Shown piece after piece: positions 3,001-17,487 of a DNA stretch of 64,000 nt. Under the pieces are notes generated by a model. The model did no database searches. It had not been told where the DNA came from and worked only from the letters and a program-made list of their open reading frames with translations. Location: IMG/VR virus record IMGVR_UViG_3300045988_074841, one strand, 5' to 3'. The translations under genes and the position numbers were made by a program. The stretch is from a virus. Numbering within the stretch: position 1 is the first letter of the stretch; every line of letters starts with the position of its first letter.

Positions 3001-3708
3001 GCTATTAATCAAGATATTAATGATTTAAAAGCAGGAAATATTGATGAGATTAAACAACGTAGACATATTCAAGATAAAGCTACTCTTGAAAAGATTAGTG
3101 AGTGGCTTAATAATGTTAATACTTTTACTGCTGAAAGTTATGCTACTCGTGAGAATCCTCAAGATGCTCTAGAAGAATTTATTGTTGAATCTCTTACCAA
3201 TGTTGATTTAATGAATTATCTTAATCAAGTTGACGCTGATGGTGGAGTAGTTAAAGGCAATACTATTTGGCAGAAAATACTCAAGTTTATTGGTGACTTG
3301 TTTGGTATTAATATTCGTCCTAATAGTCTTCGTGCTAAACAAATGGAAGCTCTTGGTGAAATATTTAAGAATAATCAAGAAGCTGAAGTTAAAGCTGAAG
3401 AAAAAGAAGAAGAAGTTACTCAACCAACAACATCTTCTACGGGGCGTATAGAAGAAGTTGAAACAGAAACAGTTGCTGATAATACTAATAGTGTTATAGA
3501 TAATGATGATGTTGGAAATGCTAATGAGGTGTTTGATATTAAGGATGAAGATGTTGATGCTGATGATGAATATGATGCTGATGAAAGTACTAGTGAAGAA
3601 GTAGCTTTCAATTCATTCAACTCAGCAATCGAATCTCTTCCGATGTCGGAACGTGCCAAATTTGCCTCTCTCGTTAGCTCTGCTGCGATTTCGATGTCTT
3701 GCAAATAG
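1..3708 (+). CDS. large virion/cargo-like protein, 5-prime partial (>1235 aa), HExxH zincin-like motif (HENLH, nt 2890-2904) and strongly acidic C-terminal tail
   Basis: Reading frame of listed ORF 79..3708 stays open back to nt 1, so the TTG at 79 is not the real start and the gene continues upstream of the window. Coding composition is uniform. It lies directly upstream of the giant RNAP gene, as cargo genes do in crAss-like phages. Confidence 0.6.
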   Translation, partial: PTQNNDEYEVHPTSNDSIANLTTNEDLFANSNIATQDNVGITSYPIVRLTGNNFEVVSQGKLGIEDVKEEETSQQTSSTGGLEQTEPVESQAATEPIPEVEETTPEVEEPKVPDFMGNASDTKVIRDVITELKTTPDLDLDAKAKSILDDYVAKGYSETETKKQIDSAFRRIRKRQEKLMNKESTVASVYFSSFDQEERNAKSKNGKAVVFDDSYKKAVSDLLDVYAKDAELPQINGKYYGNLMNLMDYIKSAYDDYSMADFMFNSLSAYLNTPEGQAKFNITDANDVSNPVAFLNNFHKSQAERDAALSNGTVHQVNMNLSDFGTDEYMKESYAEQVKLKNGDKLTIERVTTSKGTSRLGIKSNGKLVGSISIPSTGERGEYVQKNDGLIYHIDKADGSKDGALKQVLKDIARSKTPEHEKLNEIIHKAAFDKFNAEQLVNEFKSNPIVQDMVKNHMINFDGTGPEYEVALNGLAKLWRYNYKVLTEGRVNKFTGAVVANSIDKWFDTLRESYNETSKLDNNPNIDIVASDVFEGELIRSNDGTFKSDAETSLPIQLAIAKDTKFEIAAKSTTGEFINGIGSNKFLVSVGRTYVTVPRSNGTVDIVNAYPVSWTGATYYTKDDKQQQVETGKDFKQLQNAIITQIKDRLASINDGDFAENRNNFIDFIDNLLNINKNPIFLSKELSVFRTANILGINFGNKNNQLLFYRDKNGDGVGQIINKVDGKPNYISYNSDLSAVSDRLIEGIKSLNFNINFAVLKSDNNHNIPLQGITSRTTDGKFKITIPEYKGKNGVNLTYDSFKDFIQQNNLLRVNMAQENGSNIRRTAINKQGANARFSFQVTNKQESRPVEDVSDSYISKADEIKSIVTSDSTDKGFEVASALLLDDTSKEKLNSIKSDSSLRKLLAKDIIFDEEFMSKEHAQANAVWSKTKGGKVVIGQKFLDMINSKKPGEKGRAIRTLMHENLHGYIEDMANNKRHPNAVANLRNRMQDIYDDFATAINQDINDLKAGNIDEIKQRRHIQDKATLEKISEWLNNVNTFTAESYATRENPQDALEEFIVESLTNVDLMNYLNQVDADGGVVKGNTIWQKILKFIGDLFGINIRPNSLRAKQMEALGEIFKNNQEAEVKAEEKEEEVTQPTTSSTGRIEEVETETVADNTNSVIDNDDVGNANEVFDIKDEDVDADDEYDADESTSEEVAFNSFNSAIESLPMSERAKFASLVSSAAISMSCK
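229..245 (+). repeat. GC-rich motif copy TCTTCTACGGGGGGTCT (forward), in-frame in cargo gene (TSSTGGLEQ)
   Basis: direct reading of sequence. Confidence 0.8.
2544..2560 (-). repeat. GC-rich motif copy CCGCCCCGTAGAAGATG (reverse), in-frame in cargo gene (SRPVEDV)
   Basis: direct reading of sequence. Confidence 0.8.
3431..3446 (+). repeat. GC-rich motif copy CATCTTCTACGGGGCG (forward), in-frame in cargo gene (TSSTGRIEE)
   Basis: direct reading of sequence. Confidence 0.8.
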
Positions 3709-3800: not shown

Positions 3801-6800
3801 ATGGCTTGTAATTTTAAAACAACAAGTGCTGGCACAAGCATTAAACGTAAGGTTGGAGCAAATAATGCTCGTTTTGTAGCGTTAATTAGTCTTATTAGTA
3901 ATCCTGAAACTGGAGGTTTTACTGATGAGTTTGTTAAGTATTATCAGAAAGTAAATCATACTGATAATATTCCTAGTGTTGATAATTCCGAAAGAGGAGT
4001 TATCGCTAAAACTGCTATCCGTTATTATAATAGTATTCACTTTGATGTTAATGCTCAAAGTACAGGTACTTATTATGATAAGGATGTAGATGCTTTCGGT
4101 TATAGTGATAGTCATGCAAAGGTATATGCTATTACTAGAGCAATTCCTAATATTATGCGTAGTATGTATGTTAGTGATATTAGAAGTGGAGAAATTGTTG
4201 ACAAGGATTCAATTCTTGGCGATTTAATTAAACGTACAAAAGTTAGGATAACTAAGGATGTTGCTGCTAATTATCTTAAAGCTATTGGTAAACCTGCAAC
4301 TAATGTTGAAGTTAATAAGATAGCTGATGCTCTTCTTAATAATAATGAAACTTATTATAAGAAAGATGAACTTATACTTGCTATAACTAAAGCTTTTGAC
4401 AAGAATGGTGATGTTCAAGTTCAAAATACTTTTGCTATTTATAAAGATATATTTAAAGATACTACTGGTAAAGATTTCTTTAATAGAGTTATTATTGCTG
4501 ACCCTATTATTGGTAATCTAAAATATAGCGATGAAACTGAATCTAGTCTTGCTGAAGCTTATGCTGAAGATTTTGATTCAGTAGATGATTCTTCTTATAA
4601 TAATAACGAAGATGAAGATGTACTTACTGTAGGTGATAGACAAGATAATACTTGGAATGATCATAGTGGTCTTGGTTCTAGTTATATGAAAGGTTTTGAC
4701 CTTGATATTCGTCTTAGTCTTTCTATGATACCTAAACTTACTAGTAATACTGTTGATACTAAGACTTTAAAGTCTGGTAAAGTAAAGGATGTTTACGATT
4801 ATGATAAAAACAATCCTACTGGTAATGTAGATTATATTGACGTAAAAGATATTATTAGTACTCTTAGTGCTAAGAAAGATGTTTCTAATCTTAATACTTT
4901 TATTGATAGTGTAAAAGAAGCTAGTAATATTCCTGGTATGGAAGGTCTTATTAAACTTTATAAAGACCTTACTTCTGATTTAGATTATGCTGCTCGTCTT
5001 TATACTCAATTCAAAACTGTAATTAACAAATATGAAACTCGTATTGCTGATGAGAATACAGCTATGAATAAGAGTAATAAGAATAGTAATGCTCAGCAAG
5101 TTCATGCTCTTAGTTTCCTTAATGATGCTAAGTTTACTCATATAAATACTGATTCTGATATTACCAATAAACTTGCTAATGAAGTAGATGAAACTATTGT
5201 AGAATATACTCAAGCTCTTGCTGCTGGCGATGAGTTTGCTTTAGACCAAGCTAAACTTTATAATACTATTGTTGATAGAATTGCTTCTCGCATTAAAGAT
5301 TATTATCCTAGTGCAGATAAAGCTTCTATTGATAATTATGTTCGTCTTGCTAATAATGGTGAAGTTGCTACCAATATGCGTTATCTTACTGATAGTCTCA
5401 GAAAGATAGCTAAAGCTTCTGATGCTACTACTTCTCAGTATACTGAAAATCGTGATGCTATTAGCGGTATTAACAAAGAAATTAGGAAACTTCAAACTAA
5501 AATTGACGCTCTCAACGAAGCTGGGGAACATAAAGGTATAGATAAAATCAATGAAGAAATAGATAAACTTGTTAGTCAAAGAGATAATATTCGATTTAGT
5601 GATTATCGTTCTCAAGATAGTATTACTCAGAGTATTGCTTTATCTGATAAACTTTATCCTTATTCTTCTGTTAAAGTTGAACTTAATTCTCGTAATGGTT
5701 TGGGTAATCTTCAATCTGATATTATCAATAGTTCCATGATTACTTATCTTCTTAAAGTACTCAATAGTCCTAAGACTACTACTGATGAATTAGGTAATAC
5801 CGCTCCTGAGTCTCTTGTTAACTTTGCTAAGTTTAAGTTTAAGAACAATCAATATAATCTTAGTAATATTCTTATTGAGACTAGAGAAAATGGTAAGATT
5901 GTAAATTATGGTCTCTTTTATTATGATGCTGACAAACAGAAATATGGTGTTACTAATTATGCTTCTGGTTTACTTAACGTTGCATTATTTAATGGAGCTG
6001 TAAAAACTGATGAAGGTACAGGTATTACTTATGCTCAAATGAGTAAAGGCGATTATGTTTATACTGCTTTTGCTAATTATTTTAATAGCGATAAAAATAT
6101 TGATGCTGATAGAGTAACTAATAGCATTCCTCTTGCTAATTACTTTATGAGAACTCCTTCTGATGCTCCTAAAACATTTGTAGTTCGTGCTCCACGTTAT
6201 CATATAACTAAGAGTAATCCAATTAGAACTGTAACAAATGCTGCTGATGTAGATAATTATATTAAGAATTATGTTGCAGAGCATATTGCTAGTATGTCTG
6301 AAGCTGCATTTAATCAAGCTAATCCTAGAGCTAAATTTATTCAACTTGAAGATAATCGTAGTGATCGTGCTCAAATTACTAGAGATTTAACTGATAATAA
6401 TATTACTCGTTCTGTATATGAGAATGAGATTATTCGTAATGATGGTAAAACTGCAACTATTGGTTATCAATTTACTGATGAAGAAGGTAATGTAAATAAA
6501 TATATTATTACCGGTTCTATTCGCCACGTAAAAGGTATGAATAAATTTGTTATTGAGAATGGTAAAGCTACTATTCTTGATAATAATGAAATGAGAGATA
6601 ATCTTCGTCCTATGATATATGATAAGTATCGTAAACAAGCTTATCGTAACGGTAGAATTGGTGATGTTCAAGTTGATTATAAAGTTAATAGAGAACATCC
6701 TATTTATAAACAATTTAGAAAGATATTTAATCAAGAGTTGACTAATATGGCTGAGGCTATTAATATGATATTCTTGACTGGCGATGATGGTGTTATTCAG

Positions 6801-9800
6801 CGTGAAGCTGATGGTAAACCTAAGTTTAATCCTAATAATGCTTTTGGATTAGATAAAGAATCTGCTCGTAGACTTTATGCTAATTATCAAACTAAAAAAG
6901 ATAAATATCTTGATTCTAATTATGGTTTAGTTGGAAATATGTTCCATAGTGATAAGTTCACTATTACTGATTATAAGACTGGTAAAATTCGTAATTATGG
7001 TCAAGAACTTCTTGATGATTATTTTGATAGTCTGTATAATGGTAGTAAAGGTGGCTTTATTCATTTTGGTTATGAGAATGGTAAGATTAAACTTAATCAT
7101 ACTAAAGACCAAGCTAAAGCTATTGATAACAAAATAGCAGAATTTATTAGTGATTATATTTATAGTTCTGCTATACGTATGGATGAATTTAAAAATCTTG
7201 ATGTAGCTGGACTTATTAATGATGATAATGTTGCTGACTTTGCTCTTAATTATCGTCTTGCTTATAATTATTTTGATGATTTATTTGAAGGTGATGATAA
7301 GTTTTATAAGTCTTCTCAAGACTTCTTGAAACGTGCTAAGGAAGGTCAAGCTAGTGGTACTCCTTATAGTACTTTCAATATTTATCAAGATGAGAATATG
7401 ATGTTGACAGACTTAAAGAAGATGAGTTATCTTAATAGTCAAGCTATTCAAGATAAACTTAATAGTCTTGGTCTTCATGTTACTCAACGTCCTGGTTTTG
7501 TTGGTATTACTATTAAGAATACTGTAAGAACTTCTCATGAAGCTTCTCAAAATGGTCCTGTTGTTCATGAACTTGCTCGTGTTTATATGAAACATGACCC
7601 TGAACTTACAGAAGATGAAGCTATTGCTAAAGCAAATAAGCATATGGAAGGTTATCAAAATACTACTGTAAACGATGCTCAATCTTATATTACTTTTGAA
7701 GAATGGATTCGTCGTGTTGCAGGTAGAGGTCAACTTAATAAATATATGCCTCTTATTGAGCGTATTATGGATAGAAGTAAACCTCTTAGAGTAGATGATA
7801 TTAAAACTTTTGTTCAAGTACAAAAGAACTTCTATTATGATATGACTTATAATGATAAGATTAATACTTATGCTCCTCGTCAAATTAAAAATGCTGAACT
7901 TGTTCTTGTACCTAGATTTATTGAAGGTACTGACCTTGAGAAAGTATACAATCTTATGAAAGACCATGGTATTGACCAACTTAATACAGAAGAGACTTCT
8001 AAAGCTGGTAAAGCTGGAGTTCTTACTTTATTTGATGAAGAAACTGGTGAAGTTACTGATACTCATATTCAAGATTTTAATAACCATGTAGAAGATTATA
8101 AAGAGACTTATTCTTATAATTTCCTTTATACTCAGCAAGAAACTCCTCAACACATGAATGCAGAAAATAAAGCTGCTATTCAAATTATGAAGAAGATTGT
8201 TGATAATATTCCTGATACTGGAACTATTGGAGAAGTTAAGAAAGAGTTTTTTAAACTTTATGTTGCTAATATTAAAGATAGTTTCAATAGTCTTGTTAAG
8301 GAACTTAATATTCCTACAAATGAAGATGGTTCTATTAAACTCGATGCTAATGGAAATATTGAAGGACTTGATATGAAACTGTTCTTCAATAAGCTTCGTA
8401 AAGAATGTCTTCGTCAAGGTCTTGATAGTAATATTCTAGAGTTCTTTACTCTTAATGAAGATAGTCCTTATACTGAACTTGGAAGAGCTAATACTGTTAT
8501 GCCTACATATATGACTAATATGATGAGTAAAGCTCAGAATGTTTGTCAGTCTATGTTTAATAATGCTATTACTCGTCAAAAGTTGCCTGGTTTTCATGCT
8601 GCTCAGGTAACTAATGTAGGTTATTCAAAGCATCTTCGTTATCATCCTGATGGTGGACGTTACATTGAAGTTCTTCTTCCTAAGAGCAACTTTGGTTTTG
8701 CTAAAAATGAAGATGGTACTTATAAAGAACCTGATGAAATTAGAGACAAAGATGGAAATCTTGTAGGTGGACTTCTTTATCAACTTCAAAGAGCTAAACT
8801 TGATACAATTATTGGTTATCGTATTCCTACTGAAGGTAAGCAATCTATATGTGCTATGAAAGTAGTTGGATTTACAGATGATGCTCAAGGTTCAACTATA
8901 GTTGTTCCTGATGATTGGGTTGCTCAAACTGGTTCTGACTTTGATATTGATTCTGTATATGGTATTCAACATAATACATATATAGATAAAGATGGAGATA
9001 TTCAAAAAGTTGCTTATAAAGAATCATTTGGTAAATTATATGACGATTATGTAAAAGAACAACTTAATGATGAAGCTAAAGATAAACTAGAAGAAGCTGT
9101 TAAAAATGGAGTTAACGAATCTACTGCTTTAGCTAATGCTGCACAAGAGGGTGGACTTCTTAGTCGTGAAGAATTTAGTAAAGCTAATAGTATTGAAGAA
9201 AAGAATAGTCGTCAAGCTCGTAACAATCGTATACTTGATGATATGCTTCGTATTCTTCAATCTGATGAAGCTTTTGAAGAGAATACTGGTCAATCTCAAT
9301 TTGAAGATATTATCAATGCACGTGATAATATTATGAATGATGTAGTTAAGAGTGTTCGTAATGGTCGTAGTTGTTATGATTTTATTGACCAAGCTGAATA
9401 TCAAGAAGATGTTATGAGTGGTGCTAAACTTAAAGCATTTAGTGTTACTCGTGATACCTTTGTTTCTATTTGCAACAAAGTTCAACCAACTATTGATAAA
9501 AATTATGCTATTAGTGCTAGATATAAAGCTACTCCAAAACAAGCTGAGGTTTTAGCTAAACGTTTTGGAGAAGATAATGTTATTTACAAAGATGGTTATG
9601 TTACAATTAGTCATACTATGATTGGTTGGTCACACGATAATCATAATGTAGATGATGCTATTCTTACTGCTTATAGTTCTGAGACTACAGCTCATATTCT
9701 TGATGCTGTAAAAAAAGGTGCTGTACCTAATGTAAATGAGTTTACTTTTGCAGTATATAAAACTTTCCCTGATGTAGGTAGTAATTATAAGACTGGTGTT

Positions 9801-12800
9801 GCATTTATGATGCACCCTGCTGTAACTCGTATAGTTAATGCTTATAATAAAGGTAAATCTGTTTATAGTGAAGATTCTGCTCAACCTATAGTTGATGCTC
9901 TTAAAGAAGTAGCTGAAGAACTCGATGTTGATAGTAGTTCTTTATATTCAGGTAAAATGGTAGTTGAAGCTATTAATGATAAACTTGGTACAAATTATAG
10001 TTTTATTAAAAACAACAATATTGTTCTTGATGAAGAGCAATTAGCTAGTGATGTAAAGAATGCAAACAATGTTTCTCTTGCTCGTGAAGTAGAGATTCTT
10101 ATGGCTTACAATGATATTAATCGTTTAGCTGATGTAATTCAGAAAACTGTAAGAGTTTGTAATCCTGATAAGTTTGGAGCTAAACAAACTATATTTGCTA
10201 CTAATGAAGTATTTGAAACTATTAAAGATATAATTAATAGTAAACAAGCTAAAGTACTTAGTAAGAATGATATTCCTTTCCTTGAAAGTATTTATCCTGG
10301 ACTTATTAAAGATGGTGTTGTAGATAAAGATAATTATGTAAAAGATACTCATGAATCTGCTTATCCTTCTCTTAATGCTTTCTTAAAGTATGCTTCAGTT
10401 ACTAGTACTGTAGTTAATAGCATGCTTTTTGAAACTCAAAATTCTGCTTTTGTAACTACTATTAAAGCTCTTAGTAAAATGCTTCCTACTCCTCGTAAAC
10501 TTACTGAGAAAGAATATAATGATTATGAGAAGTATGTTATTGGTGCTGCTTATAATAATGCTGACGGAATTAGATTAGGTTATACTATCAACTCTTCTAC
10601 GGGGCGTCTTGAATCAACTAAAACAAGTGATTTACAAGAGCGTCTTCGTATTTATGGATTTAGTGGTAGTCCAGTATTTCATTTTGATGTTGAAGATATT
10701 ACTGAACCAACTCAAGATGAAATTGATGCTTGGTCTAAACTTACTCCTGCTCAAAAAGTTGCTTGGTTACAAAGTAAAGCAGAAGATGGTGGTATATTTA
10801 GTAAACTTAAAGTTGACCTTCAAGATAATTATCGTGTTGGTAATAAAGAATGTGCTGCTCAATCTATTCGTTTTAATGATGATAATGTAGATACTGAAAC
10901 TGCTTACAATCTTTTTGAAACTGCTACTAAGAGTCAGAATCCTCTTGTTAAACTTGCAGCTATAGACCTTATTAAATATGCGTTTGTAGTTGAAGGTTTC
11001 AAGATGCGTCGTAATGGTATTAATAAGATTATTAAGAATAGTACTCTTCGTGATGATACTTTGTTTGCTAATCAAGATGGAGAACCTACTAGTCTTCTTA
11101 GTCAAATTGATGCTAATTTTAAGCATATTACTTATGATGATTATCGTGATGATTATTTAAGAAGTCATTCTGATAATGGTATGGTTCCAAAAAGAACTGT
11201 AAAGAAGAAAAGAGTAGGTAAAATTTGGGTTAATGAACTTAGTGCTCCTGATGGAGTTATAACTCTTAATGTTCCTTCTCGTAGAAATGATATTACAGAA
11301 GCAGATATTAATGATGAATTTGCTGCTACTAAAACTATTGCAGAAGAGACGGAAATCCGCCCCGTAGAAGATGTAGTAGATAATAAACTTCAAGTTGTTC
11401 AAGATAATACTACTGCTCCAGATGATACTAAACTTGCTGTTAAGTATGGTATTTATAATGCTTGGACTGATAGAGTTAATCCTTATGTAAAACTTACTTT
11501 TAAGAATCGTGGTGTTAATACTACGAATCTTTATAAGACTGTTCGTCATGGTGATATAATATTTGCTTATCCTGTTAGTATGCTTGAGGAAAACGAACAT
11601 GGTATTGTTTCTGTTAATCAAGCTAATAATACTCTTTATAGTGAGATGTATTATAGAACTATTATTGATAATAAACTTCAAGGTAATCAACTTACTAAAG
11701 AAGAAGCAGATAAACTTCGTAAAGAATACGCCAATGAACGAGCTATTTCTTCTAAAAGTAGAGTTAATACTGGTTTTGATATTAATAAAGATAGAACTAC
11801 TGGCGATATAGGTGGTGCTCGTGATGCTTATAGTAAAATTATTAATCTTATTAAGAATGATGCTAAAGGTATTCAAATTATAAACAATAGGTATCTTTAT
11901 AATCGTGTTAGTGAAGGATTTGGTAATTTCCAAATTATTCATGATGTAATTGATGGTAATGAAGTTACTAAGAAAATTGCTTTTGCTAAAGAAACAAAAG
12001 TAATATTTGATTCTGAAGGTAAAGTAATTCCTTATCCTGTTAAAGTTATTCAGATTATTCCTTCTACTAATGATAAAGAAAGTACATCTGTTGAATATAA
12101 TTTTGACATGTTTACTGATATTAATCGTAGAGCACATGAAGGTGATGTCAATGCTTATCGTGAAGTTCAGTTTATGAATAATAATGGTTTTGAGAATGTT
12201 AGTACTGATTATACAAATATGTCTCCTAAACTTTATGAAGCTATTGATAGATTCACTAGTGCTACAGCTAAGAAACTTATCAGTGATGCTGACCAATTCT
12301 ATAAAAAAGAAGATGGAACTTATGCTTCTATATTTGCTCCTGAAACTATAGAAATGATTCGTAATAATCCTAGTGAGCAAAGACGTTTTCAAAAGTTACT
12401 TCTTGATACAGATAGTATTATTAATAAATATGGTACTATATTTGATGTTGTAGTTGACGAAAATGAGAATCCTGAAGTAATTGATTTTATTAATCATATT
12501 AAGAAAACTATTGGAGATTTACGTAACAAACTTAATCTTAGTACTCTTAATGAAAGATTTGCTAGAGAAGTTGTTGCTAAATGGTCTAATGACCCTAATA
12601 TTCAAAATGGTTTAGTTGATATTTGTAATGGTTATCATGCTGTTACTTGGTGTGATGCTTGGATTGGAGATTTACAAGATACTGGTAATAGTCTTATTCA
12701 AAATATTAGCAAACATATAGTTGATGATATTAGTGCTAAAGATATGCAAGCTGCTAAAGATGCTCGTGAATTTGAAAAAGCTATTAAAGCTCTAGGTCAC

Positions 12801-15800
12801 ATAGATTGGGATAAACTTGTTGATAAGAACGGTAAACTTATTAGAGATTATACTGACAAATTTGTTGAAGATTTAGATACTCTTAGAAATAAAGTAGATG
12901 AAGCTCGTAAAGATGTCATTAATAATCCTATGGCTTATCTTAAAGCTAAGCATGAATATGATGCTTTCAAGCTTGCTCATCTTAATCAACAATTTAAGGA
13001 TGAGTATTATAAAGCTATGTATGATAATGATGATTACATGCTTAATACTGCTCCTACTATTTTTGCTGAATATACAAAACTTAGAGAGCAAATTAGAAAT
13101 ATTAATCGTCTTCGTATTAGTGGTGTTCTTAGTCCTGAAAATGAAGAAGAATATCGTAAACTTAGAAGAAGTATTAATCAACTTGAGTCTACAATAAATT
13201 TTGATGATGGTACTGAGAAACCTATTTATGATGAAACTAATCCTATTCCAGGTACTAAAGGTTTCGATGAAGAAGGTAAACCTATAATTGTAGATAAGGC
13301 TAAATATGATGAAGCTGTATTAAACTCTCAAGGAGCTGCTATGAAACTTAATCAATATCTCAAACGCAAACGTGATATTAATGAAGAATATAATGATACT
13401 CAAGTTAAGGATAGTTTTGAAGAAGAACTTGATAAGAGACTTGATATTATTAAGCGAGCTGAGAAACGTGATGCTTTTGGTAATAAACAAGTTTCTGATG
13501 AAGTTCTTGCTAATGACGAAAAGTATCAAAGAGCTAAAGAATGGCTTGAGCAAAATGCTACTTGGCATGTAGACCCTAAAGTTAGTGATGAAATTGCTGT
13601 AGCTTATGGTGTTCTTTCTAAAGGTAGAGTACAAAAGAATAATCAAATAACTTATAAGGCTAAACTTATCAAAATTAAACTTGCTAATGGTGAGAAAGTT
13701 TATGATAGTAAAGGTCGTATTCGTGGCGATATATTTACTGAAGAAGAACAAGAAGCTATAAGAAAAGATGAAGCTGGTCGTTATAATAATACTATTTATT
13801 CTGCTGGTAATGAACAAATATTAATTAATAATGCTCCTGAACAAAAGCAAGCTCTTCCTGCTGTAGTACAAAGAATGCTCACTTCTAATAGCAAAGAAGG
13901 TAAAGCTAACGTTGAATATCTTAAATTAGTTAATGAAATTAATGAAATTCTTCGTCCTTATTATGATACTACTAAGAAAGAAGTTAATACTATAACTGAT
14001 AGACATCAAATTAGTATTGAAGAACTTCATAAACTTGCTGATTTGTATGAGAAACTTCGTAATACAAAAAAGACTATAGTTAATGAAGATATACCTGGTA
14101 ATGGTTCTGCTGTTGGTAGTTTTATTCGTAAGTTTATGCATACTGAATATAGTTCTAAGTTTGATATTGAATACAGTAAAGCTAAAACTATTGGTGGTGA
14201 ATATCTTAAAGCTTGGGAAGATGCTAATATGGAATATGATTTTGAATATGATGAAAAAGGTCATATTGTTAAAGACTCAGATGGTAATTATGTATATGAT
14301 AAATCAGTTCGTCTTCCTAATCGTTTTCTTTATGGTACTCTTACTCTTAAAGATGAGTTCTATACTGGTATGAAGAATCAGAAAGTAGCTAAAGACTTGC
14401 GTAAAGAAGCAGAGATTAAAACTAAAGCTCTTGCTACTATTAACGAATATCTTGAAACTACTACAACTCCTTATTATAGTGATGCTATGGCTGAGGCTAG
14501 AGCTAAAGGTAAAGAAGAGTTTGATAAGTGGTTTACTCGTAATCATGTATGGAATGTTTATACTCATAAGTTTGACCCAATAGGTATTTGGCAAAAGACT
14601 AGTATTAAACCTAATTACGCTAATGGTACTTGGGCTGCTAATTATAATCAGTTAGATATTGTTCCTAAAGAAGAATATCGTAATCCTGATTATAAAGAGA
14701 ATACTACTCAAGCTGAGAATTTTAAACGTGGTATAAACGATGAAAAATATGTTAACAATGTAACTCTTAGTGACAATGAAAAACAAGCTAAGAAACTTAT
14801 TGAAACAACATTAGATAAGATTGTTAGAGATAAAACTAGTCGTCGTATTATTAGTCAAGGTTTTATTCCTATTACTGCAAAAGAAGCTGACCATGACTTT
14901 AAATGGTTTGGTAAACAAATAGCTGAATTTGCTGGTTGGAATGCTAATATTAGCTCTGTTGGTAAGAATAGTCTTCATGCTAATATGAATTATTCTACTG
15001 ATAAAACTCCAGTGCTTCCTATGATTGGTAGAGAATTTACTAATAAAAATAGTGAAGACATTAATAAAATTAAAGCTGCTGAGCCAAAGAGAGATCAATA
15101 TACTACTGATGAAGAGTATAATAAAGCTATGACTGAACATAAAGCTAGACTTGATGCTGCTGAAAAGAATAATAAAGCAATACATCAATCTCTTGTTAAT
15201 AGAGATTTTGTTTCTAGTATTAGTCAGTTTATTAGACTTGCTGGTCATCAAAATGCTGTTCAAGATAATAAGTATCTCTTCTATTATGGTCAAAATATGA
15301 TTAAAGCTACTCCTGTACTTGATGATAATATAGGTTTTAGTAATCTCAGAAAAGATATTAATAGAAGTACTACTGATGTTACTCGTTATGCTGAAAAGAC
15401 TTATGATGAAAGACTTTATGGTCAGTTTACTAATTGGGGTAATAGACTTATCTACGATAGATATAAACTTCCTAATAATAAACTTACCAAAGCTGCTAAT
15501 ATTGCACAAAGTCTTACTAGTGCTAAATTTATGATGTTAAATATTACTGGTGCTATTGGTAACGTTACTGTTGGTCGTAGTGGTATTTTTGCTGAACATA
15601 TAGCTAAAGCTTATTTTAGTACTTCTGCTTGGAATAAAGCTAAAACTATGTGGTATGGTGCTTCTTTATCTTTCCTAAGAGGAATGACTAGAGAAGATAG
15701 TACTAGTCTTGCTGATGCTATTGTTAAATTTATGAATGTTGTAGATTTCGATGAAGTACTTGGTAGACCTAGTGGTAGTTTTAAAGCTAGTGATGCCATT

Positions 15801-17174
15801 AATCGTCTTAGAAACCTTATGTATTCTCCTAATGCTATGGGTGAACATCACATGCAGAATAGTGCTATGTTTGCTATGATGTTTGAGAATAGAATTGTTC
15901 CTGTAGATGATTATCGAAATAAAGGTAGACTTCCTTATCAAGCTATGACTTGGTCTCAATATAAAGTTGCTTCTCACGAAGAAGCTATGAGACAACTTAT
16001 TGCTGGTACTCCTCTTGCTGCTCAATTTGAGAAATTTGTAAATGATATAAAGTCTGACCCAAATCAACTTAAAGAATATGCTAGAGGAAGAAGAGATTTA
16101 GCTAATGAATTTAAGAACATTTTCCTTAACAATAAACAAAGTAAAGATTTTGTTGCTAAACGTAAGGAACTTGAAGCTAAAGCTAAGAAACAATTTGAAG
16201 CTAATCCTACTCTTATGGAACAGCTTGATTTGGTTGATGGTAGACTAGGTTTTAAAGATGGTTCTCTTATGGAACAACTTTCTAAACAAAGTACTAATGG
16301 AGAAATAAATGATGCTTATGCTCTTCTTGGAGAGTTCAAAGGTAAAGTTATTGCTGTTAATAAAGAAATACATGGTGTATATGATAGACTTGGTGCTGCT
16401 CAACTTGAAAAATATTGGTGGGGTAGTCTTGTTATGCAATATCATAAACATATATATCCAGGTATTCTTAAACATTGGAGAAGAAAAGGTTATTTTAATG
16501 AACAAACAGGCGATAGTCGTGTAGGTTGTGGTCCTGCTCTTATGGATTTCCTTACAATGCCTATTCGTCAATATAATGAAAGACATAAACTTTTAGATAA
16601 TAAACAGCTTGAAGCACTTGAAGGTACTCAAAATCTTTTTGCTGCTTATGTAAACTTTGCTGAGAATATTCGAGTTAATTGGGAAGCATTACCTGAATAT
16701 CAGAAAGCTGCTATTCGTAGAACAGCTGGTGATGTATTTGGTGCTTTATCTTCTATTATGGTTGCTATCGGTACTAATATAGCTTGGGATGATAAGGATA
16801 AAGATAAAATGCTTCTTCCTAATCTTATGCTTTATAGTGCAGACAAACTTGCAACTGAAAGTATGATGTATAATCCAATATTCCTTCCAAACAATGCTAA
16901 AGATCTTTGGAGTTCTCCTATTGCAATGATGAATATGCCTAATGATATTATCAATAGTCTTAATCTTGTAGCAAATGCTATGTTTGATGATGAATTTGAT
17001 TATAATTATACTACTGGTCGTTACAAAGGTGAGAATAAATTTAAAGTTAAACTTATGAGACAAGTTCCTATTTATAGAGCTTATAATAATCTTGCTACTA
17101 TTGATAAGAGTAATAGTTATTATCATTATGGTAAAAATATACTTGGATTTGTTCCTACATCATTTGATAAATAA
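3801..17174 (+). CDS. giant virion-packaged RNA polymerase-like protein (crAss-like vRNAP), 4457 aa
   Basis: Uninterrupted 13.4-kb ORF. Aspartate triad DFDID at aa 1713-1717 (nt 8937-8951) resembles the DxDxD metal-binding motif of crAss-like phage virion RNAP (phi14:2 gp66 type double-psi beta-barrel). All antisense ORFs inside it are AT-rich artefacts. Confidence 0.6.
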   Translation: MACNFKTTSAGTSIKRKVGANNARFVALISLISNPETGGFTDEFVKYYQKVNHTDNIPSVDNSERGVIAKTAIRYYNSIHFDVNAQSTGTYYDKDVDAFGYSDSHAKVYAITRAIPNIMRSMYVSDIRSGEIVDKDSILGDLIKRTKVRITKDVAANYLKAIGKPATNVEVNKIADALLNNNETYYKKDELILAITKAFDKNGDVQVQNTFAIYKDIFKDTTGKDFFNRVIIADPIIGNLKYSDETESSLAEAYAEDFDSVDDSSYNNNEDEDVLTVGDRQDNTWNDHSGLGSSYMKGFDLDIRLSLSMIPKLTSNTVDTKTLKSGKVKDVYDYDKNNPTGNVDYIDVKDIISTLSAKKDVSNLNTFIDSVKEASNIPGMEGLIKLYKDLTSDLDYAARLYTQFKTVINKYETRIADENTAMNKSNKNSNAQQVHALSFLNDAKFTHINTDSDITNKLANEVDETIVEYTQALAAGDEFALDQAKLYNTIVDRIASRIKDYYPSADKASIDNYVRLANNGEVATNMRYLTDSLRKIAKASDATTSQYTENRDAISGINKEIRKLQTKIDALNEAGEHKGIDKINEEIDKLVSQRDNIRFSDYRSQDSITQSIALSDKLYPYSSVKVELNSRNGLGNLQSDIINSSMITYLLKVLNSPKTTTDELGNTAPESLVNFAKFKFKNNQYNLSNILIETRENGKIVNYGLFYYDADKQKYGVTNYASGLLNVALFNGAVKTDEGTGITYAQMSKGDYVYTAFANYFNSDKNIDADRVTNSIPLANYFMRTPSDAPKTFVVRAPRYHITKSNPIRTVTNAADVDNYIKNYVAEHIASMSEAAFNQANPRAKFIQLEDNRSDRAQITRDLTDNNITRSVYENEIIRNDGKTATIGYQFTDEEGNVNKYIITGSIRHVKGMNKFVIENGKATILDNNEMRDNLRPMIYDKYRKQAYRNGRIGDVQVDYKVNREHPIYKQFRKIFNQELTNMAEAINMIFLTGDDGVIQREADGKPKFNPNNAFGLDKESARRLYANYQTKKDKYLDSNYGLVGNMFHSDKFTITDYKTGKIRNYGQELLDDYFDSLYNGSKGGFIHFGYENGKIKLNHTKDQAKAIDNKIAEFISDYIYSSAIRMDEFKNLDVAGLINDDNVADFALNYRLAYNYFDDLFEGDDKFYKSSQDFLKRAKEGQASGTPYSTFNIYQDENMMLTDLKKMSYLNSQAIQDKLNSLGLHVTQRPGFVGITIKNTVRTSHEASQNGPVVHELARVYMKHDPELTEDEAIAKANKHMEGYQNTTVNDAQSYITFEEWIRRVAGRGQLNKYMPLIERIMDRSKPLRVDDIKTFVQVQKNFYYDMTYNDKINTYAPRQIKNAELVLVPRFIEGTDLEKVYNLMKDHGIDQLNTEETSKAGKAGVLTLFDEETGEVTDTHIQDFNNHVEDYKETYSYNFLYTQQETPQHMNAENKAAIQIMKKIVDNIPDTGTIGEVKKEFFKLYVANIKDSFNSLVKELNIPTNEDGSIKLDANGNIEGLDMKLFFNKLRKECLRQGLDSNILEFFTLNEDSPYTELGRANTVMPTYMTNMMSKAQNVCQSMFNNAITRQKLPGFHAAQVTNVGYSKHLRYHPDGGRYIEVLLPKSNFGFAKNEDGTYKEPDEIRDKDGNLVGGLLYQLQRAKLDTIIGYRIPTEGKQSICAMKVVGFTDDAQGSTIVVPDDWVAQTGSDFDIDSVYGIQHNTYIDKDGDIQKVAYKESFGKLYDDYVKEQLNDEAKDKLEEAVKNGVNESTALANAAQEGGLLSREEFSKANSIEEKNSRQARNNRILDDMLRILQSDEAFEENTGQSQFEDIINARDNIMNDVVKSVRNGRSCYDFIDQAEYQEDVMSGAKLKAFSVTRDTFVSICNKVQPTIDKNYAISARYKATPKQAEVLAKRFGEDNVIYKDGYVTISHTMIGWSHDNHNVDDAILTAYSSETTAHILDAVKKGAVPNVNEFTFAVYKTFPDVGSNYKTGVAFMMHPAVTRIVNAYNKGKSVYSEDSAQPIVDALKEVAEELDVDSSSLYSGKMVVEAINDKLGTNYSFIKNNNIVLDEEQLASDVKNANNVSLAREVEILMAYNDINRLADVIQKTVRVCNPDKFGAKQTIFATNEVFETIKDIINSKQAKVLSKNDIPFLESIYPGLIKDGVVDKDNYVKDTHESAYPSLNAFLKYASVTSTVVNSMLFETQNSAFVTTIKALSKMLPTPRKLTEKEYNDYEKYVIGAAYNNADGIRLGYTINSSTGRLESTKTSDLQERLRIYGFSGSPVFHFDVEDITEPTQDEIDAWSKLTPAQKVAWLQSKAEDGGIFSKLKVDLQDNYRVGNKECAAQSIRFNDDNVDTETAYNLFETATKSQNPLVKLAAIDLIKYAFVVEGFKMRRNGINKIIKNSTLRDDTLFANQDGEPTSLLSQIDANFKHITYDDYRDDYLRSHSDNGMVPKRTVKKKRVGKIWVNELSAPDGVITLNVPSRRNDITEADINDEFAATKTIAEETEIRPVEDVVDNKLQVVQDNTTAPDDTKLAVKYGIYNAWTDRVNPYVKLTFKNRGVNTTNLYKTVRHGDIIFAYPVSMLEENEHGIVSVNQANNTLYSEMYYRTIIDNKLQGNQLTKEEADKLRKEYANERAISSKSRVNTGFDINKDRTTGDIGGARDAYSKIINLIKNDAKGIQIINNRYLYNRVSEGFGNFQIIHDVIDGNEVTKKIAFAKETKVIFDSEGKVIPYPVKVIQIIPSTNDKESTSVEYNFDMFTDINRRAHEGDVNAYREVQFMNNNGFENVSTDYTNMSPKLYEAIDRFTSATAKKLISDADQFYKKEDGTYASIFAPETIEMIRNNPSEQRRFQKLLLDTDSIINKYGTIFDVVVDENENPEVIDFINHIKKTIGDLRNKLNLSTLNERFAREVVAKWSNDPNIQNGLVDICNGYHAVTWCDAWIGDLQDTGNSLIQNISKHIVDDISAKDMQAAKDAREFEKAIKALGHIDWDKLVDKNGKLIRDYTDKFVEDLDTLRNKVDEARKDVINNPMAYLKAKHEYDAFKLAHLNQQFKDEYYKAMYDNDDYMLNTAPTIFAEYTKLREQIRNINRLRISGVLSPENEEEYRKLRRSINQLESTINFDDGTEKPIYDETNPIPGTKGFDEEGKPIIVDKAKYDEAVLNSQGAAMKLNQYLKRKRDINEEYNDTQVKDSFEEELDKRLDIIKRAEKRDAFGNKQVSDEVLANDEKYQRAKEWLEQNATWHVDPKVSDEIAVAYGVLSKGRVQKNNQITYKAKLIKIKLANGEKVYDSKGRIRGDIFTEEEQEAIRKDEAGRYNNTIYSAGNEQILINNAPEQKQALPAVVQRMLTSNSKEGKANVEYLKLVNEINEILRPYYDTTKKEVNTITDRHQISIEELHKLADLYEKLRNTKKTIVNEDIPGNGSAVGSFIRKFMHTEYSSKFDIEYSKAKTIGGEYLKAWEDANMEYDFEYDEKGHIVKDSDGNYVYDKSVRLPNRFLYGTLTLKDEFYTGMKNQKVAKDLRKEAEIKTKALATINEYLETTTTPYYSDAMAEARAKGKEEFDKWFTRNHVWNVYTHKFDPIGIWQKTSIKPNYANGTWAANYNQLDIVPKEEYRNPDYKENTTQAENFKRGINDEKYVNNVTLSDNEKQAKKLIETTLDKIVRDKTSRRIISQGFIPITAKEADHDFKWFGKQIAEFAGWNANISSVGKNSLHANMNYSTDKTPVLPMIGREFTNKNSEDINKIKAAEPKRDQYTTDEEYNKAMTEHKARLDAAEKNNKAIHQSLVNRDFVSSISQFIRLAGHQNAVQDNKYLFYYGQNMIKATPVLDDNIGFSNLRKDINRSTTDVTRYAEKTYDERLYGQFTNWGNRLIYDRYKLPNNKLTKAANIAQSLTSAKFMMLNITGAIGNVTVGRSGIFAEHIAKAYFSTSAWNKAKTMWYGASLSFLRGMTREDSTSLADAIVKFMNVVDFDEVLGRPSGSFKASDAINRLRNLMYSPNAMGEHHMQNSAMFAMMFENRIVPVDDYRNKGRLPYQAMTWSQYKVASHEEAMRQLIAGTPLAAQFEKFVNDIKSDPNQLKEYARGRRDLANEFKNIFLNNKQSKDFVAKRKELEAKAKKQFEANPTLMEQLDLVDGRLGFKDGSLMEQLSKQSTNGEINDAYALLGEFKGKVIAVNKEIHGVYDRLGAAQLEKYWWGSLVMQYHKHIYPGILKHWRRKGYFNEQTGDSRVGCGPALMDFLTMPIRQYNERHKLLDNKQLEALEGTQNLFAAYVNFAENIRVNWEALPEYQKAAIRRTAGDVFGALSSIMVAIGTNIAWDDKDKDKMLLPNLMLYSADKLATESMMYNPIFLPNNAKDLWSSPIAMMNMPNDIINSLNLVANAMFDDEFDYNYTTGRYKGENKFKVKLMRQVPIYRAYNNLATIDKSNSYYHYGKNILGFVPTSFDK
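10592..10606 (+). repeat. GC-rich motif copy CTCTTCTACGGGGCG (forward), in-frame in vRNAP (NSSTGRLES)
   Basis: direct reading of sequence. Confidence 0.8.
11357..11373 (-). repeat. GC-rich motif copy CCGCCCCGTAGAAGATG (reverse), in-frame in vRNAP (IRPVEDV)
   Basis: direct reading of sequence. Confidence 0.8.
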
Positions 17175-17176
17175 AC

Positions 17177-17192
17177 CGCCCCGTAAAAGAGT
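17177..17192 (-). repeat. GC-rich motif variant CCGCCCCGTAAAAGAG (reverse), 3 nt after vRNAP stop codon
   Basis: direct reading of sequence. Confidence 0.7.
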
Positions 17193-17331: not shown

Positions 17332-17402
17332 TGCTCTATGGTGTAATGGTAGCACTACAGATTTTGGTTCTGTCAGAGCAGGTTCGAATCCTGCTAGAGT
17401 AA
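17332..17402 (+). tRNA. tRNA-Gln (anticodon UUG)
   Basis: Cloverleaf folded by hand. Acceptor stem TGCTCTA/TAGAGTA (one G-U), D-stem GTGT/GCAC with a GG-containing D-loop, anticodon stem ACAGA/TCTGT with loop TTTTGGT (anticodon TTG), T-arm GCAGG-TTCGAAT-CCTGC. CCA is not encoded. Confidence 0.7.
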
Positions 17403-17487
17403 CAAATGCTATAAGTTCTAAACTACTTGCTAAATTAATTGTTTATAGGGTTTAAATGTGGTTTAAGGTGATATTTATAAAGTTCTT

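What the first reader, a model, noticed from the sequence alone, without database searches (positions are those of the whole stretch)
3801..17174. 13.4-kb single gene encoding a 4457-aa vRNAP-like protein
This is one of the largest phage ORFs. The DFDID triad (aa 1713-1717) fits the catalytic Asp motif of the crAss-like virion RNAP. The remaining 4000 residues likely fuse domains that are separate large cargo proteins in other crAss-like phages. Its size, its fusion state, and which extra activities ride along with the polymerase are open questions. The gene also contains two motif copies (NSSTGRLES, IRPVEDV).
Basis: partly seen in the sequence, partly recalled or inferred. Interest (0 to 1): 0.6.

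Follow-up and report, generated by a model that had tools for sequence, protein, structure and literature searches.

The report
Giant crAss-like phage virion RNA polymerase
This 13.4-kb gene is real and encodes the virion-packaged RNA polymerase of a human-gut crAss-like phage, fused to a partner protein; such fusions are already described and this one is slightly smaller than the family median.

Summary
The ORF at 3801-17174 (+) is real: 4457 codons with no stop, and DFDID at aa 1713-1717. The identical protein is encoded on six public contigs. Twenty-four contigs found by allele-neutral DNA scans, and 17 IMG/VR relatives, keep the frame open.

It is the ortholog of prototypical crAssphage gp44, annotated "RNAP catalytic subunit fused to unknown RNAP subunit". 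About aa 1-2600 are collinear with phi14:2 gp66, the solved virion RNA polymerase (PDB 6VR4; profile E=3e-72; model-to-structure E=9e-26). The DFDID aligns with gp66's catalytic 1361-DFDID-1365. The last ~680 aa match phi14:2 gp65, and gene order is conserved.

The size is ordinary for the family: 121 of the 150 best cluster representatives are at least 4000 aa, 85 are at least 4457 aa, and the largest is 5199 aa. No extra enzymatic domain was found.

The two "motif copies" are the two orientations of one DNA element, TCTTCTACGGGGCG. It occurs 16 times in the window against 0.02 expected. A variant occurs 21 times in prototypical crAssphage. This is unexplained and is the most interesting thing here.

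A few public assemblies carry 1-nt deletions that break the gene, including a recurrent one at nt 9954. These are probably technical.

The parts
1..3708 (+). 3' part of the upstream virion 'transcription block' gene; it is cut by the window start and is 2357 aa in relatives. It is the ortholog of crAssphage gp45 ('RNAP associated protein fused to zincin protease'). It has an HENLH motif at nt 2890-2904 and carries three copies of the DNA motif (229+, 2545-, 3433+).
   Evidence: The frame is open from nt 1. BLASTP to crAssphage gp45 gives E=1e-58 to 1e-14. There are weak matches to the phi14:2 gp67 N-terminus (E=9e-5) and to gp65 residues 228-342 around its HEIMH (E=0.004). Relatives encode 2357 aa.
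3801..17174 (+). Giant gene: 4457 aa, 507 kDa, pI 5.8. It is a gp66-like virion RNA polymerase fused to a gp65-like C-terminal module.
   Evidence: Orthologs: crAssphage gp44 (4070 aa), cr8_1 (4422), cr271_1 (4620), cr3_1 and crAss002 gp33 (4245 each), cr127_1 (4133).
3801..11609 (+). gp66-like polymerase module, aa 1 to about 2603, collinear with phi14:2 gp66 residues 1-2124 of 2180. It includes a lineage-variable insertion at aa ~801-950.
   Evidence: hhalign of the 14-ortholog alignment against gp66: probability 99.85, E=1.4e-30, 1918 aligned columns. Conservation map. The ends of this greedy alignment are approximate.
7401..10100 (+). Two-barrel RNA polymerase core, aa 1201-2100. By alignment to gp66 the equivalents are: connector aa ~1440-1600, bridge helix aa ~1860-1900, trigger loop aa ~1956-1990.
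   Evidence: The profile matches PDB 6VR4 with E=3.3e-72 (chain residues 624-1766). The AlphaFold2 model has pLDDT 76.7. Foldseek's top hit is 6VR4 at E=8.8e-26, followed by bacterial beta', archaeal Rpo1 and Pol II Rpb1. Landmark mapping. This is the block with the densest invariant residues.
8937..8951 (+). DFDID, aa 1713-1717: the catalytic metal-binding aspartate motif.
   Evidence: It aligns with gp66 1361-DFDID-1365. D1713, F1714, D1715 and D1717 are invariant in 14 orthologs. In gp66, alanine substitution of each aspartate was tested and RNA synthesis was reported abolished (the excerpt read is cut off at that point).
9954..9957 (+). A4 run just before Met2053 (ATG at 9957-9959). Loss of one A gives ...GKW-stop plus an overlapping ATG, which splits the gene into ORFs of about 2052 and 2405 aa.
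   Evidence: The A3 state is present in 4 Logan contigs, on four different haplotypes. The A4 state is present in the window, in most of the IMG/VR relatives fetched and in the 24 contigs from the neutral scans.
11268..11450 (+). Poorly conserved acidic linker, aa ~2490-2550, absent from most distant orthologs. It holds the antisense motif copy (IRPVEDV).
   Evidence: Column occupancy is 0.36. Deletions at aa 2491-2545 in cr8_1, cr271_1, crAss002, cr127_1 and crAssphage.
11610..15101 (+). Middle region, aa ~2604-3767. It is charged and has moderate conservation. No domain was recognised and it is found only inside this family of giant proteins. The gp66/gp65 junction probably lies at aa ~2660-2785.
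   Evidence: Full-library HMMER search: nearly all listed matches lie at the equivalent position of 4000-5200-aa proteins. A few 1600-1900-aa proteins start near query position 200-250, so they may be stand-alone partners or fragments. Composition. Pfam and PHROGs found nothing.
15102..17144 (+). gp65-like C-terminal module, aa 3768-4448. It is the second most conserved block and is predicted to be mainly alpha-helical. It has one weakly hydrophobic segment at aa 4309-4330.
   Evidence: hhalign to phi14:2 gp65 residues 837-1419: probability 99.2, E=1.4e-19. BLASTP aa 4189-4424 against gp65 1180-1400: E=2.7e-11. tblastn. AlphaFold2 pLDDT is only 56 and there is no significant fold match. Hydropathy.
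10593..10606 (+). DNA motif copy TCTTCTACGGGGCG in sense orientation, read as SSTGR (aa 2265-2269).
   Evidence: The position is conserved in 16 close relatives.
11358..11371 (-). DNA motif copy in antisense orientation, read as RPVED (aa 2520-2524).
17177..17190 (-). DNA motif copy (TCTTTTACGGGGCG) 3 nt after the stop codon of the giant gene.
   Evidence: The same placement is seen in cr8_1, cr271_1 and the IMG/VR relatives.
17332..17403 (+). tRNA-Gln(UUG) downstream of the gene. It is followed by convergent terminator-like hairpins at 17488-17518 (+) and 17597-17568 (-), which mark the end of the rightward block.
   Evidence: A tRNA-Gln sits in the same place in cr8_1 and cr271_1. GC skew flips at about 18 kb.

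Best explanation
The gene encodes the virion-packaged, single-chain two-barrel (DPBB) DNA-dependent RNA polymerase of a human-gut crAss-like phage (Crassvirales, Intestiviridae; the nearest named relative is cr8_1, Obtuvirinae). In this lineage the polymerase is fused in one 507-kDa chain to the C-terminal part of the 'RNAP-associated' virion protein, which is gp65 in phage phi14:2.

Shown here:
- The frame is intact.
- It is orthologous to crAssphage gp44.
- About aa 1-2600 are homologous to gp66, at both sequence and fold level.
- DFDID is equivalent to the gp66 catalytic motif.
- The last ~680 aa are homologous to gp65.
- Gene order is conserved.

Inferred from experiments on phi14:2 and from crAss001 virion data:
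- The protein is made late and packed in the capsid as cargo.
- It is ejected into the Bacteroidales host ahead of or with the DNA, probably partly unfolded.
- It then uses the three aspartates to bind Mg2+ and transcribe early phage genes independently of the host, rifampicin-sensitive polymerase.

Whether the fusion works as one chain is unknown. It might instead be cut, for example by the HExxH zincin at the end of the upstream protein.
For: - Intact ORF and motif.
- Frame reproducibility.
- Orthology: 34% identity over 1536 aa to crAssphage gp44, annotated 'putative RNAP catalytic subunit fused to unknown RNAP subunit'. 42% over 2747 aa to the cr8_1 4422-aa protein.
- Homology to the solved enzyme: the profile of aa 1201-2100 hits 6VR4 with E=3.3e-72 and GSDFDID aligns to GSDFDID. 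Direct BLASTP gives E=3e-23. hhalign covers aa 1-2603 against gp66 1-2124.
- Fold: the AlphaFold2 model has pLDDT 76.7. Its best PDB match is 6VR4 (E=8.8e-26), followed by RNAP beta'/Rpo1/Rpb1 chains.
- Conservation: D1713, D1715 and D1717 are invariant in 14 orthologs. 114 of 121 giant family representatives carry DFDxD.
- The gp65-like C-terminus.
- Synteny: g067-g066-g065, then divergent genes, in phi14:2. The same layout is seen in the window, cr8_1 and crAssphage.
- Function of the family: gp66 is virion-packaged, Mg-dependent and rifampicin-resistant, transcribes early genes, and was tested with alanine mutants of each DFDID aspartate. Fusions are noted in some phages. The RNAP-associated proteins are capsid cargo in crAss001.
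Against: - No biochemical or proteomic data exist for this phage.
- Pfam, PHROGs and single-sequence PDB searches find nothing. Recognition therefore depends on family-specific profiles.
- The first ~850 and last ~450 residues of the gp66-like module align at only 17-21% identity in a greedy alignment, so the module boundary (aa ~2600-2785) is approximate.
- The middle ~1150 aa and the C-terminal module have no assignable fold.
- Some public assemblies show the gene frameshifted.
Confidence: 0.9

Rival explanations
1. The 4457-aa frame is an artefact. Two or more real genes are joined by an indel error, for example an extra A at 9954-9957 fusing a ~2052-aa polymerase gene to a 2405-aa downstream gene.
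For: Four Logan contigs that are 97% identical to the window have A3 instead of A4 there. That gives ...GKW-stop and an overlapping ATG at Met2053, and a clean 1991 + 2405 aa pair in L005. Many cluster members end in frameshifted tails.
Against: - Allele-neutral scans find A4 in 10 IMG/VR and 14 ENA/JGI contigs, and A3 in none.
- The identical full-length protein is on 6 contigs, including Logan and a coverage-66 SPAdes contig.
- Distant orthologs at 21-46% identity are continuous across this point.
- The broken contigs were reached through a protein search that listed no hit longer than 1574 aa, which is a selection bias.
- The four A3 contigs sit on four different haplotypes. L003 differs from the A4 contig L008 by 0.2%.
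- Their unpaired, frame-shifting indels are all single-base deletions, mostly in or next to A runs. This is a pattern I know as typical of homopolymer under-calling.
Confidence: 0.03
2. The recurrent A3 state is a real circulating or hypermutable allele. Some phages of this species then make the polymerase as two translationally coupled chains, split about 60 aa after the trigger-loop equivalent, or as a truncated product. This would parallel the variable protein boundaries reported for other crAss groups.
For: - The same 1-nt loss appears in 4 contigs from at least 3 projects.
- The deletion creates an exact stop/start overlap (ATGGTAG) at an existing Met codon.
- Yutin et al. 2021 report RNAP ORFs disrupted by stops and frameshifts, and variable boundaries among closely related phages in the Zeta group.
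Against: - It is not a clade or a linked haplotype.
- It is absent from 24 neutrally sampled contigs.
- Three of the four A3 contigs carry further frameshifts that would remove 30-65 aa of the conserved polymerase.
- An A4 run is short for slippage (general knowledge).
Confidence: 0.1
3. The product is a polyprotein. After assembly or on ejection it is cut into a ~2600-2750-aa polymerase and a ~1700-1850-aa partner, possibly by the zincin (HENLH) domain at the end of the upstream protein.
For: - Drobysheva et al. propose that such fusions are 'likely cleaved into individual components', and that the zincin domain may activate the RNAP.
- The two modules are separate genes in phi14:2.
- A variable acidic linker lies at aa ~2490-2550.
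- Some family members of 1600-1900 aa begin near aa ~2680-2785.
- HENLH is in the upstream ORF, with weak similarity to the gp65 zincin region.
Against: There is no cleavage-site evidence. The shorter family members may be fragments. The zincin assignment rests on a motif and an E=0.004 match, with no Pfam hit. This is a refinement of the best explanation rather than an alternative to it.
Confidence: 0.35
4. It is a structural or scaffold protein, as the 'nuclear pore complex-like protein' annotation of cr8_1 and cr271_1 would suggest, and the DFDID is a coincidence.
For: GenBank product names for two orthologs. There are long charged helical stretches.
Against: Homology to the experimentally characterised polymerase is strong in sequence and in fold and is centred on DFDID. 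The 'nuclear pore' label has no support in any search made here.
Confidence: 0.01

Closest known systems
Prototypical crAssphage (Carjivirus communis, BK010471) KP06_gp44, 'putative RNAP catalytic subunit fused to unknown RNAP subunit', 4070 aa
   Same: It is the ortholog with the same architecture, a gp66-like module followed by a gp65-C-like module. The position is the same: after the gp45-like zincin protein and before the oppositely oriented block. It has a DFDVD motif in the same place, and it also carries internal copies of the related DNA motif.
   Different: Identity is only 28-34%. The window protein is 387 aa longer, mainly through insertions at aa ~800-960 and ~2490-2545. The phage belongs to a different subfamily-level lineage.
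Cellulophaga phage phi14:2 gp66 (PDB 6VR4; virion RNA polymerase, 2180 aa) plus gp65 (1421 aa)
   Same: It has the same two-barrel catalytic core with an identical GSDFDID. Collinearity runs over the whole of gp66, and the gp65 C-terminal ~580 aa match the end of the window protein. The gene order is the same.
   Different: They are two separate genes in phi14:2 and one gene here. The gp65 zincin (HEIMH at residue 245) is not in the giant protein, which has no HExxH. A candidate HENLH sits in the upstream protein instead. The window protein has about 850 more residues than gp66 and gp65 together. Identity is 17-31%.
Annotated giant orthologs in Intestiviridae and Crevaviridae: crAss002 gp33 (4245 aa, cultured phage), cr8_1 (4422), cr271_1 (4620), cr3_1 (4245), cr127_1 (4133)
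   Same: All are single ORFs of 4100-4600 aa with the same module order.
   Different: Identity to the window protein is 21-46%. Product names are inconsistent ('nuclear pore complex-like', 'hypothetical', 'RNAP catalytic subunit').
crAss001 RNA-polymerase-associated cargo proteins gp47 (262.5 kDa), gp49 (154.5 kDa) and gp50 (276.9 kDa)
   Same: They form the same functional set, the virion cargo 'transcription block', stored in the capsid and thought to be ejected partly unfolded.
   Different: There are three separate proteins there, against two here (about 2357 aa plus 4457 aa). No direct sequence match to crAss001 was obtained in my searches, so the one-to-one correspondence was not tested.
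Schitoviridae (N4-like) virion RNA polymerase, about 3500 aa
   Same: It works alike: a giant polymerase packed in the capsid and ejected to transcribe early genes (abstracts).
   Different: From general knowledge it is unrelated in fold, being a T7-like single-subunit polymerase rather than a two-barrel enzyme. No RNA-polymerase family of any kind was reported for the window protein in the Pfam scan.
Thermus phage P23-45 tape-measure-fused virion RNA polymerase (5002 aa)
   Same: It is another two-barrel virion polymerase fused to a different virion protein in one giant chain (abstract).
   Different: The fusion partner is a tail tape-measure protein and the phage lineage is different. It was not compared here.

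Membership tests
crAss-like virion RNA polymerase (phi14:2 gp66 family, two-barrel/DPBB) | DFDxD catalytic aspartate motif | tested here: met
   DFDID at aa 1713-1717. It aligns to gp66 1361-1365. The three Asp are invariant in 14 orthologs.
crAss-like virion RNA polymerase (phi14:2 gp66 family, two-barrel/DPBB) | Sequence homology to gp66 across both barrels, the connector, the bridge helix and the trigger loop | tested here: met
   Profile against 6VR4: E=3.3e-72, chain residues 624-1766. BLASTP E=3e-23. hhalign probability 99.85 over gp66 1-2124. Landmarks mapped.
crAss-like virion RNA polymerase (phi14:2 gp66 family, two-barrel/DPBB) | Fold similar to gp66 and to the large subunits of cellular RNAPs | tested here: met
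   AlphaFold2 model of aa 1201-2100, pLDDT 76.7. Foldseek: 6VR4 at E=8.8e-26 and probability 1.00, then beta'/Rpo1/Rpb1 at E of about 1e-4 to 1e-3. The global TM-score is modest (0.43), so domain arrangement is not tested.
crAss-like virion RNA polymerase (phi14:2 gp66 family, two-barrel/DPBB) | Position in the conserved 'transcription block', next to the other giant virion proteins | tested here: met
crAss-like virion RNA polymerase (phi14:2 gp66 family, two-barrel/DPBB) | Packaged in virions and delivered to the host | not testable with these tools
   Known for phi14:2 and crAss001 only.
crAss-like virion RNA polymerase (phi14:2 gp66 family, two-barrel/DPBB) | Mg-dependent, rifampicin-resistant DNA-templated RNA synthesis | not testable with these tools
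   Shown for gp66 and inferred here.
phi14:2 gp65-like RNAP-associated virion protein | Homology to the gp65 C-terminal region | tested here: met
   aa 3768-4448 against gp65 837-1419: probability 99.2, E=1.4e-19. BLASTP E=2.7e-11.
phi14:2 gp65-like RNAP-associated virion protein | Zincin-like HExxH protease domain | tested here: not met
   There is no HExxH anywhere in the 4457-aa protein. A candidate HENLH lies in the upstream ORF, as in crAssphage gp45 (HESLH). The giant protein therefore contains only the non-protease part of gp65.
N4-like (T7-type single-subunit) virion RNA polymerase | T7-like polymerase domain | tested here: not met
   No polymerase family was reported in the Pfam scan at E<=1. 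The best fold matches are multisubunit-type RNAPs.
Intein- or intron-interrupted crAss gene | In-frame insertion with intein end residues, or an out-of-frame intron | tested here: not met
   The frame is continuous. The 158-166-aa cassettes that some relatives carry at aa 1608 have no significant Pfam match. By my inspection of their sequences they do not show intein-like termini; no dedicated intein test was run.

The most novel reading that the evidence does not exclude
The two 'motif copies' inside the gene belong to an apparently undescribed genome-wide cis-element of Intestiviridae. The core is CATCYTCTACGGGGSG and about 22 nt are conserved. It has 16 copies in this 64-kb window and 21 copies in the 97-kb prototypical crAssphage genome. 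It lies on both strands, in intergenic DNA and inside genes. Most coding copies use one reading phase (SSTG[R/G] in sense, RPV in antisense), and the two in the giant gene lie in poorly conserved stretches. One copy sits immediately after the stop codon of the giant gene in several genera.

If it is functional, it could be one of:
- a binding or loading site for a virion protein, such as the ejected polymerase (whose promoters are unknown) or the phage IHF-like proteins;
- a nicking signal;
- a recombination signal.
Probability: 0.45. Interest if true: 0.65.

Novelty: new member of a known kind. Interest (0 to 1): 0.17.

Why it matters
As a gene, it matters little beyond annotation. It is another, fairly divergent (42-46% identity to the nearest named phage) copy of the crAss-like virion polymerase fusion. 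It gives a cleaner module map for annotating orthologs that GenBank labels 'hypothetical' or 'nuclear pore complex-like'.

Three by-products may matter more:
1. A dispersed DNA motif is shared with the most abundant human gut virus, and I could find no description of it. The promoters of the crAss virion polymerase are still unknown.
2. There is an insertion hot spot inside the polymerase (aa 1608) that carries alternative ~160-aa cassettes in near-identical strains.
3. Giant AT-rich genes like this are often broken by single-base deletions in public assemblies, so they appear in protein databases as many fragments.

Tried and rejected
- Pfam, PHROGs and phmmer against PDB with the whole protein gave no meaningful hits.
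- A full-length search of the 5.8-billion-protein database timed out. I used sub-regions instead.
- The AlphaFold2 model of the C-terminal module (aa 3701-4457, 14-sequence alignment) had pLDDT 56. Foldseek against PDB gave nothing below E=1.9, so no function is assigned.
- Membrane segments: only one weak hydrophobic stretch, aa 4309-4330. I make no claim of a channel-forming role.
- HExxH in the giant protein: none.
- Intein at the aa 1608 insertion of relatives: no significant Pfam match, and the termini do not look intein-like on inspection.
- Hairpin in the DNA motif: folding energies are no better than shuffles and there is no common structure.
- Rfam: only the tRNA.
- Motif orientation against gene strand or genome half: no rule in the window or in crAssphage, so a simple promoter or terminator reading is rejected.
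- Literature search for the motif sequences: only unrelated primer hits.
- The A3 'split' allele as an inherited lineage: rejected, because the four carriers are on different haplotypes.
Full report
**1. Observation**

The ORF listing and translation confirm one open frame at 3801..17174 on the + strand. It has 4457 sense codons and an ATG start. An in-frame stop lies 27 nt upstream. DFDID occurs once, at aa 1713-1717 (nt 8937-8951). The gene closes a rightward block: GC skew is positive to about 17 kb and then flips. It is followed by tRNA-Gln (17332-17403) and convergent terminator-like hairpins. The predicted product is 507 kDa with pI 5.8.

**2. Is the uninterrupted frame genuine?**

My first route into public data was a protein search with aa 1201-2100. 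It listed no hit longer than 1574 aa. The contigs behind the best hits carry the gene broken by 1-nt deletions. All four contigs I examined share a loss of one A in the run at 9954-9957. That loss creates ...GKW-stop and an overlapping ATG at Met2053, giving two ORFs of about 2052 (1991 in L005) and exactly 2405 aa.

That route is biased towards broken genes, so I made neutral checks:
- Seventeen IMG/VR loci were found with peptides that do not span the junction. All have a single open frame of about 4450-4630 codons, where the contig is long enough.
- Exact DNA scans that accept either allele found A4 in 10 IMG/VR and 14 ENA/JGI contigs, and A3 in none.
- The exact 4457-aa sequence is on record from JGI, ENA and Logan, on six contigs of 50-200 kb. 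One is a 96,248-bp SPAdes contig at coverage 66.
- Orthologs at 21-46% identity are continuous across every one of the frameshift positions.

The four A3 contigs are not a lineage. They sit on four different local haplotypes, and L003 is 0.2% from an A4 contig. Their unpaired, frame-shifting indels are all single-base deletions, mostly in or beside A runs.

I conclude the frame is real. The broken versions are most simply technical. The recurrence at one site is not fully explained, and I keep it as a low-probability rival (a real split allele). Yutin et al. 2021 describe frameshifted RNAP genes and shifting protein boundaries in another crAss group.

**3. What it is**

Megablast places the window among crAss-like phages. 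The only stretch conserved at the DNA level with prototypical crAssphage is nt 5004-5165 of the gene, which is the DFDID region. The crAssphage gene under that match is KP06_gp44, 4070 aa, annotated 'putative RNAP catalytic subunit fused to unknown RNAP subunit'. BLASTP gives 34% identity over 1536 aa, plus further segments. cr8_1 has a 4422-aa ortholog at 42% identity over 2747 aa.

Single-sequence searches of Pfam, PHROGs and PDB find nothing. A profile of aa 1201-2100 with 17 homologs matches PDB 6VR4, the virion RNA polymerase gp66 of Cellulophaga phage phi14:2. The match has E=3.3e-72 over chain residues 624-1766, with GSDFDID aligned to GSDFDID. Even plain BLASTP gives E=3e-23.

An AlphaFold2 model of the same 900 residues has pLDDT 76.7. 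Its best structural match is 6VR4 (E=8.8e-26). [quoted passage not shown] The three aspartates are invariant in 14 orthologs. In gp66, 1361-DFDID-1365 is the catalytic motif, and alanine substitution of each aspartate was tested.

**4. Module map**

A profile-to-sequence alignment of 14 full-length orthologs against gp66 is collinear from aa 1 to about 2603 with gp66 residues 1-2124 of 2180. It has probability 99.85 and 1918 aligned columns, with 17-31% identity per block.

By this alignment the equivalents are:
- connector: aa ~1440-1600
- bridge helix: aa ~1860-1900
- trigger loop: aa ~1956-1990

The last two coincide with clusters of invariant residues.

The C-terminal 680 aa (3768-4448) match gp65 residues 837-1419 of phi14:2, with probability 99.2. 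In phi14:2 the order is g067, g066, g065, followed by oppositely oriented genes. The window has the same layout, with g066 and the C-terminal part of g065 in one frame.

gp65's zincin motif (HEIMH at residue 245) has no counterpart in the giant protein, which has no HExxH. An HENLH lies near the end of the upstream protein, which also resembles crAssphage gp45 ('...fused to zincin protease') and, weakly, gp67.

About 2600 residues are the polymerase itself. About 1850 are the fused partner, and about 1150 of those (aa ~2604-3767) are charged, family-specific sequence with no recognisable domain. The partner's C-terminal module could not be modelled with confidence and has no fold match. I found no evidence for an additional enzymatic activity.

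**5. How ordinary it is**

A full HMMER search of 1.84 billion cluster representatives with aa 2561-3760 returned 180 proteins. Among the best 150:
- 121 are at least 4000 aa long;
- 85 are at least 4457 aa;
- the maximum is 5199 aa and the median of the giants is 4581 aa;
- 114 of the 121 giants contain DFDxD (84 DFDID, 27 DFDVD).

Annotated examples include cr271_1 (4620 aa), crAss002 gp33 (4245 aa, a cultured phage), cr3_1 (4245 aa) and cr127_1 (4133 aa, family Crevaviridae).

The literature already covers this. [quoted passage not shown] The window gene is thus a new, fairly divergent member of a known kind.

**6. Mechanism**

These steps are inferred, not shown here. By analogy with phi14:2 and the crAss001 virion atlas, the protein is packed in the capsid as cargo. 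It passes through the tail in a partly unfolded state and refolds in the Bacteroidales host. It then transcribes early genes with a Mg2+ site built from D1713, D1715 and D1717, independently of the host polymerase.

Whether the fusion acts as one chain or is cut is open. Any cut might be made by the upstream zincin. I give processing about one chance in three.

**7. The 'motif copies'**

NSSTGRLES and IRPVEDV are not a protein repeat. They are the two orientations of one DNA element, TCTTCTACGGGGCG. The wider consensus is aACATCTTCTACGGGGCGGcTAGAa. With up to 2 mismatches there are 16 copies in the window, against 0.02 expected. They lie on both strands; 12 are inside ORFs and 4 are intergenic.

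The coding copies use these reading phases:
- seven sense copies encode SSTG[R/G][L/I/V]E;
- three antisense copies encode RPV[E/K][D/E];
- two use another phase.

In the giant gene both copies lie in poorly conserved stretches.

The copies are positionally conserved in close relatives. Variants occur in distant Intestiviridae: L023, cr271_1, cr8_1 and cr3_1. They do not occur in the crAss002, cr127_1 or phi14:2 loci I held. One copy sits 3-6 nt after the giant gene's stop codon in several genera.

The complete prototypical crAssphage genome has 21 copies of TCCATCCTC[T/C]ACGGGG[G/A]GT and none in 30 shuffles. The element has no consistent hairpin and no orientation rule. It has no Rfam match, and I found no paper that contains it. 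Its function is unknown. It deserves its own follow-up.

**8. Other things seen**

Near-identical strains differ by a ~160-aa cassette inserted at aa 1608, just upstream of the catalytic barrel. There are two unrelated cassette sequences, and neither has a Pfam match. In-frame length variation also follows the DFDID motif, at aa ~1735-1800.

**9. Verdict**

The gene is a new member of a known kind and of low interest in itself. The dispersed DNA motif is the part worth a second look.

Noticed in passing
window 229+, 2545-, 3433+, 10593+, 11358-, 17177-, 20310+, 24652-, 27831+, 30695-, 35504+, 38651-, 45041+, 49943+, 53155+, 58920+; also L171/L172 (crAssphage BK010471), 21 sites: A dispersed ~22-nt DNA motif with core TCTTCTACGGGGCG. 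It has 16 copies in 64 kb against 0.02 expected. It lies on both strands, in coding and intergenic DNA, and most coding copies use one reading phase (SSTGR in sense, RPVED in antisense). A variant (TCCATCCTCTACGGGGGGT) has 21 copies in prototypical crAssphage. Variants also occur in cr8_1, cr271_1, cr3_1 and L023, but not in the crAss002, cr127_1 or phi14:2 loci. It has no hairpin, no strand rule, no Rfam match and no paper found.
   Followed up: partly
window 9954-9957 (also 5446, 5887, 6810, 9203); loci L003-L006: Four Logan contigs that are 97% identical to the window all lack one A at 9954-9957. This splits the gene into ORFs of about 2052 and 2405 aa with an ATGGTAG stop/start overlap, and three of them carry further 1-nt deletions. 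The carriers are on four different haplotypes, and the allele is absent from 24 neutrally sampled contigs. It is probably technical, but the recurrence at one site is unexplained.
   Followed up: yes
giant protein aa 1608 (window ~8622-8627); L008 and L019 versus L012: An insertion hot spot just upstream of the catalytic barrel. Strains with 92-98% identical proteins carry either no insert (the window), a 158-aa cassette (L008, L019) or an unrelated 166-aa cassette (L012). Neither cassette has a significant Pfam match, and the ends do not look intein-like.
   Followed up: partly
window 1-3708 (+), HENLH at 2890-2904: The upstream giant gene is cut by the window start and is 2357 aa in relatives. 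It is the crAssphage gp45 ortholog and carries the only HExxH of the block. The zincin that is part of gp65 in phi14:2 therefore sits in a different protein here. The gene also holds three copies of the DNA motif.
   Followed up: partly
window 17332-17403 (+), 17488-17518 (+), 17597-17568 (-): A tRNA-Gln(UUG) lies directly after the giant gene, conserved in cr8_1 and cr271_1. It is followed by a pair of strong convergent terminator-like hairpins at the junction of the two transcription directions.
   Followed up: no
window 3729-3756: A perfect 10-bp inverted repeat (TCTAGAGGAG...TCCTCTAGA region) followed by a T-rich run lies between the upstream gene's stop and the giant gene's start. The simple terminator scan did not call it, because the loop is longer than its limit.
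   Followed up: no
protein database hits P0001-P0072: In the 90%-identity protein collection this gene family shows up mostly as fragments of 200-2000 aa. Many end in frameshifted tails, and one ends in a translated Illumina adapter (…EIGRAHV). Naive homolog searches therefore give a misleading picture of gene size.
   Followed up: partly
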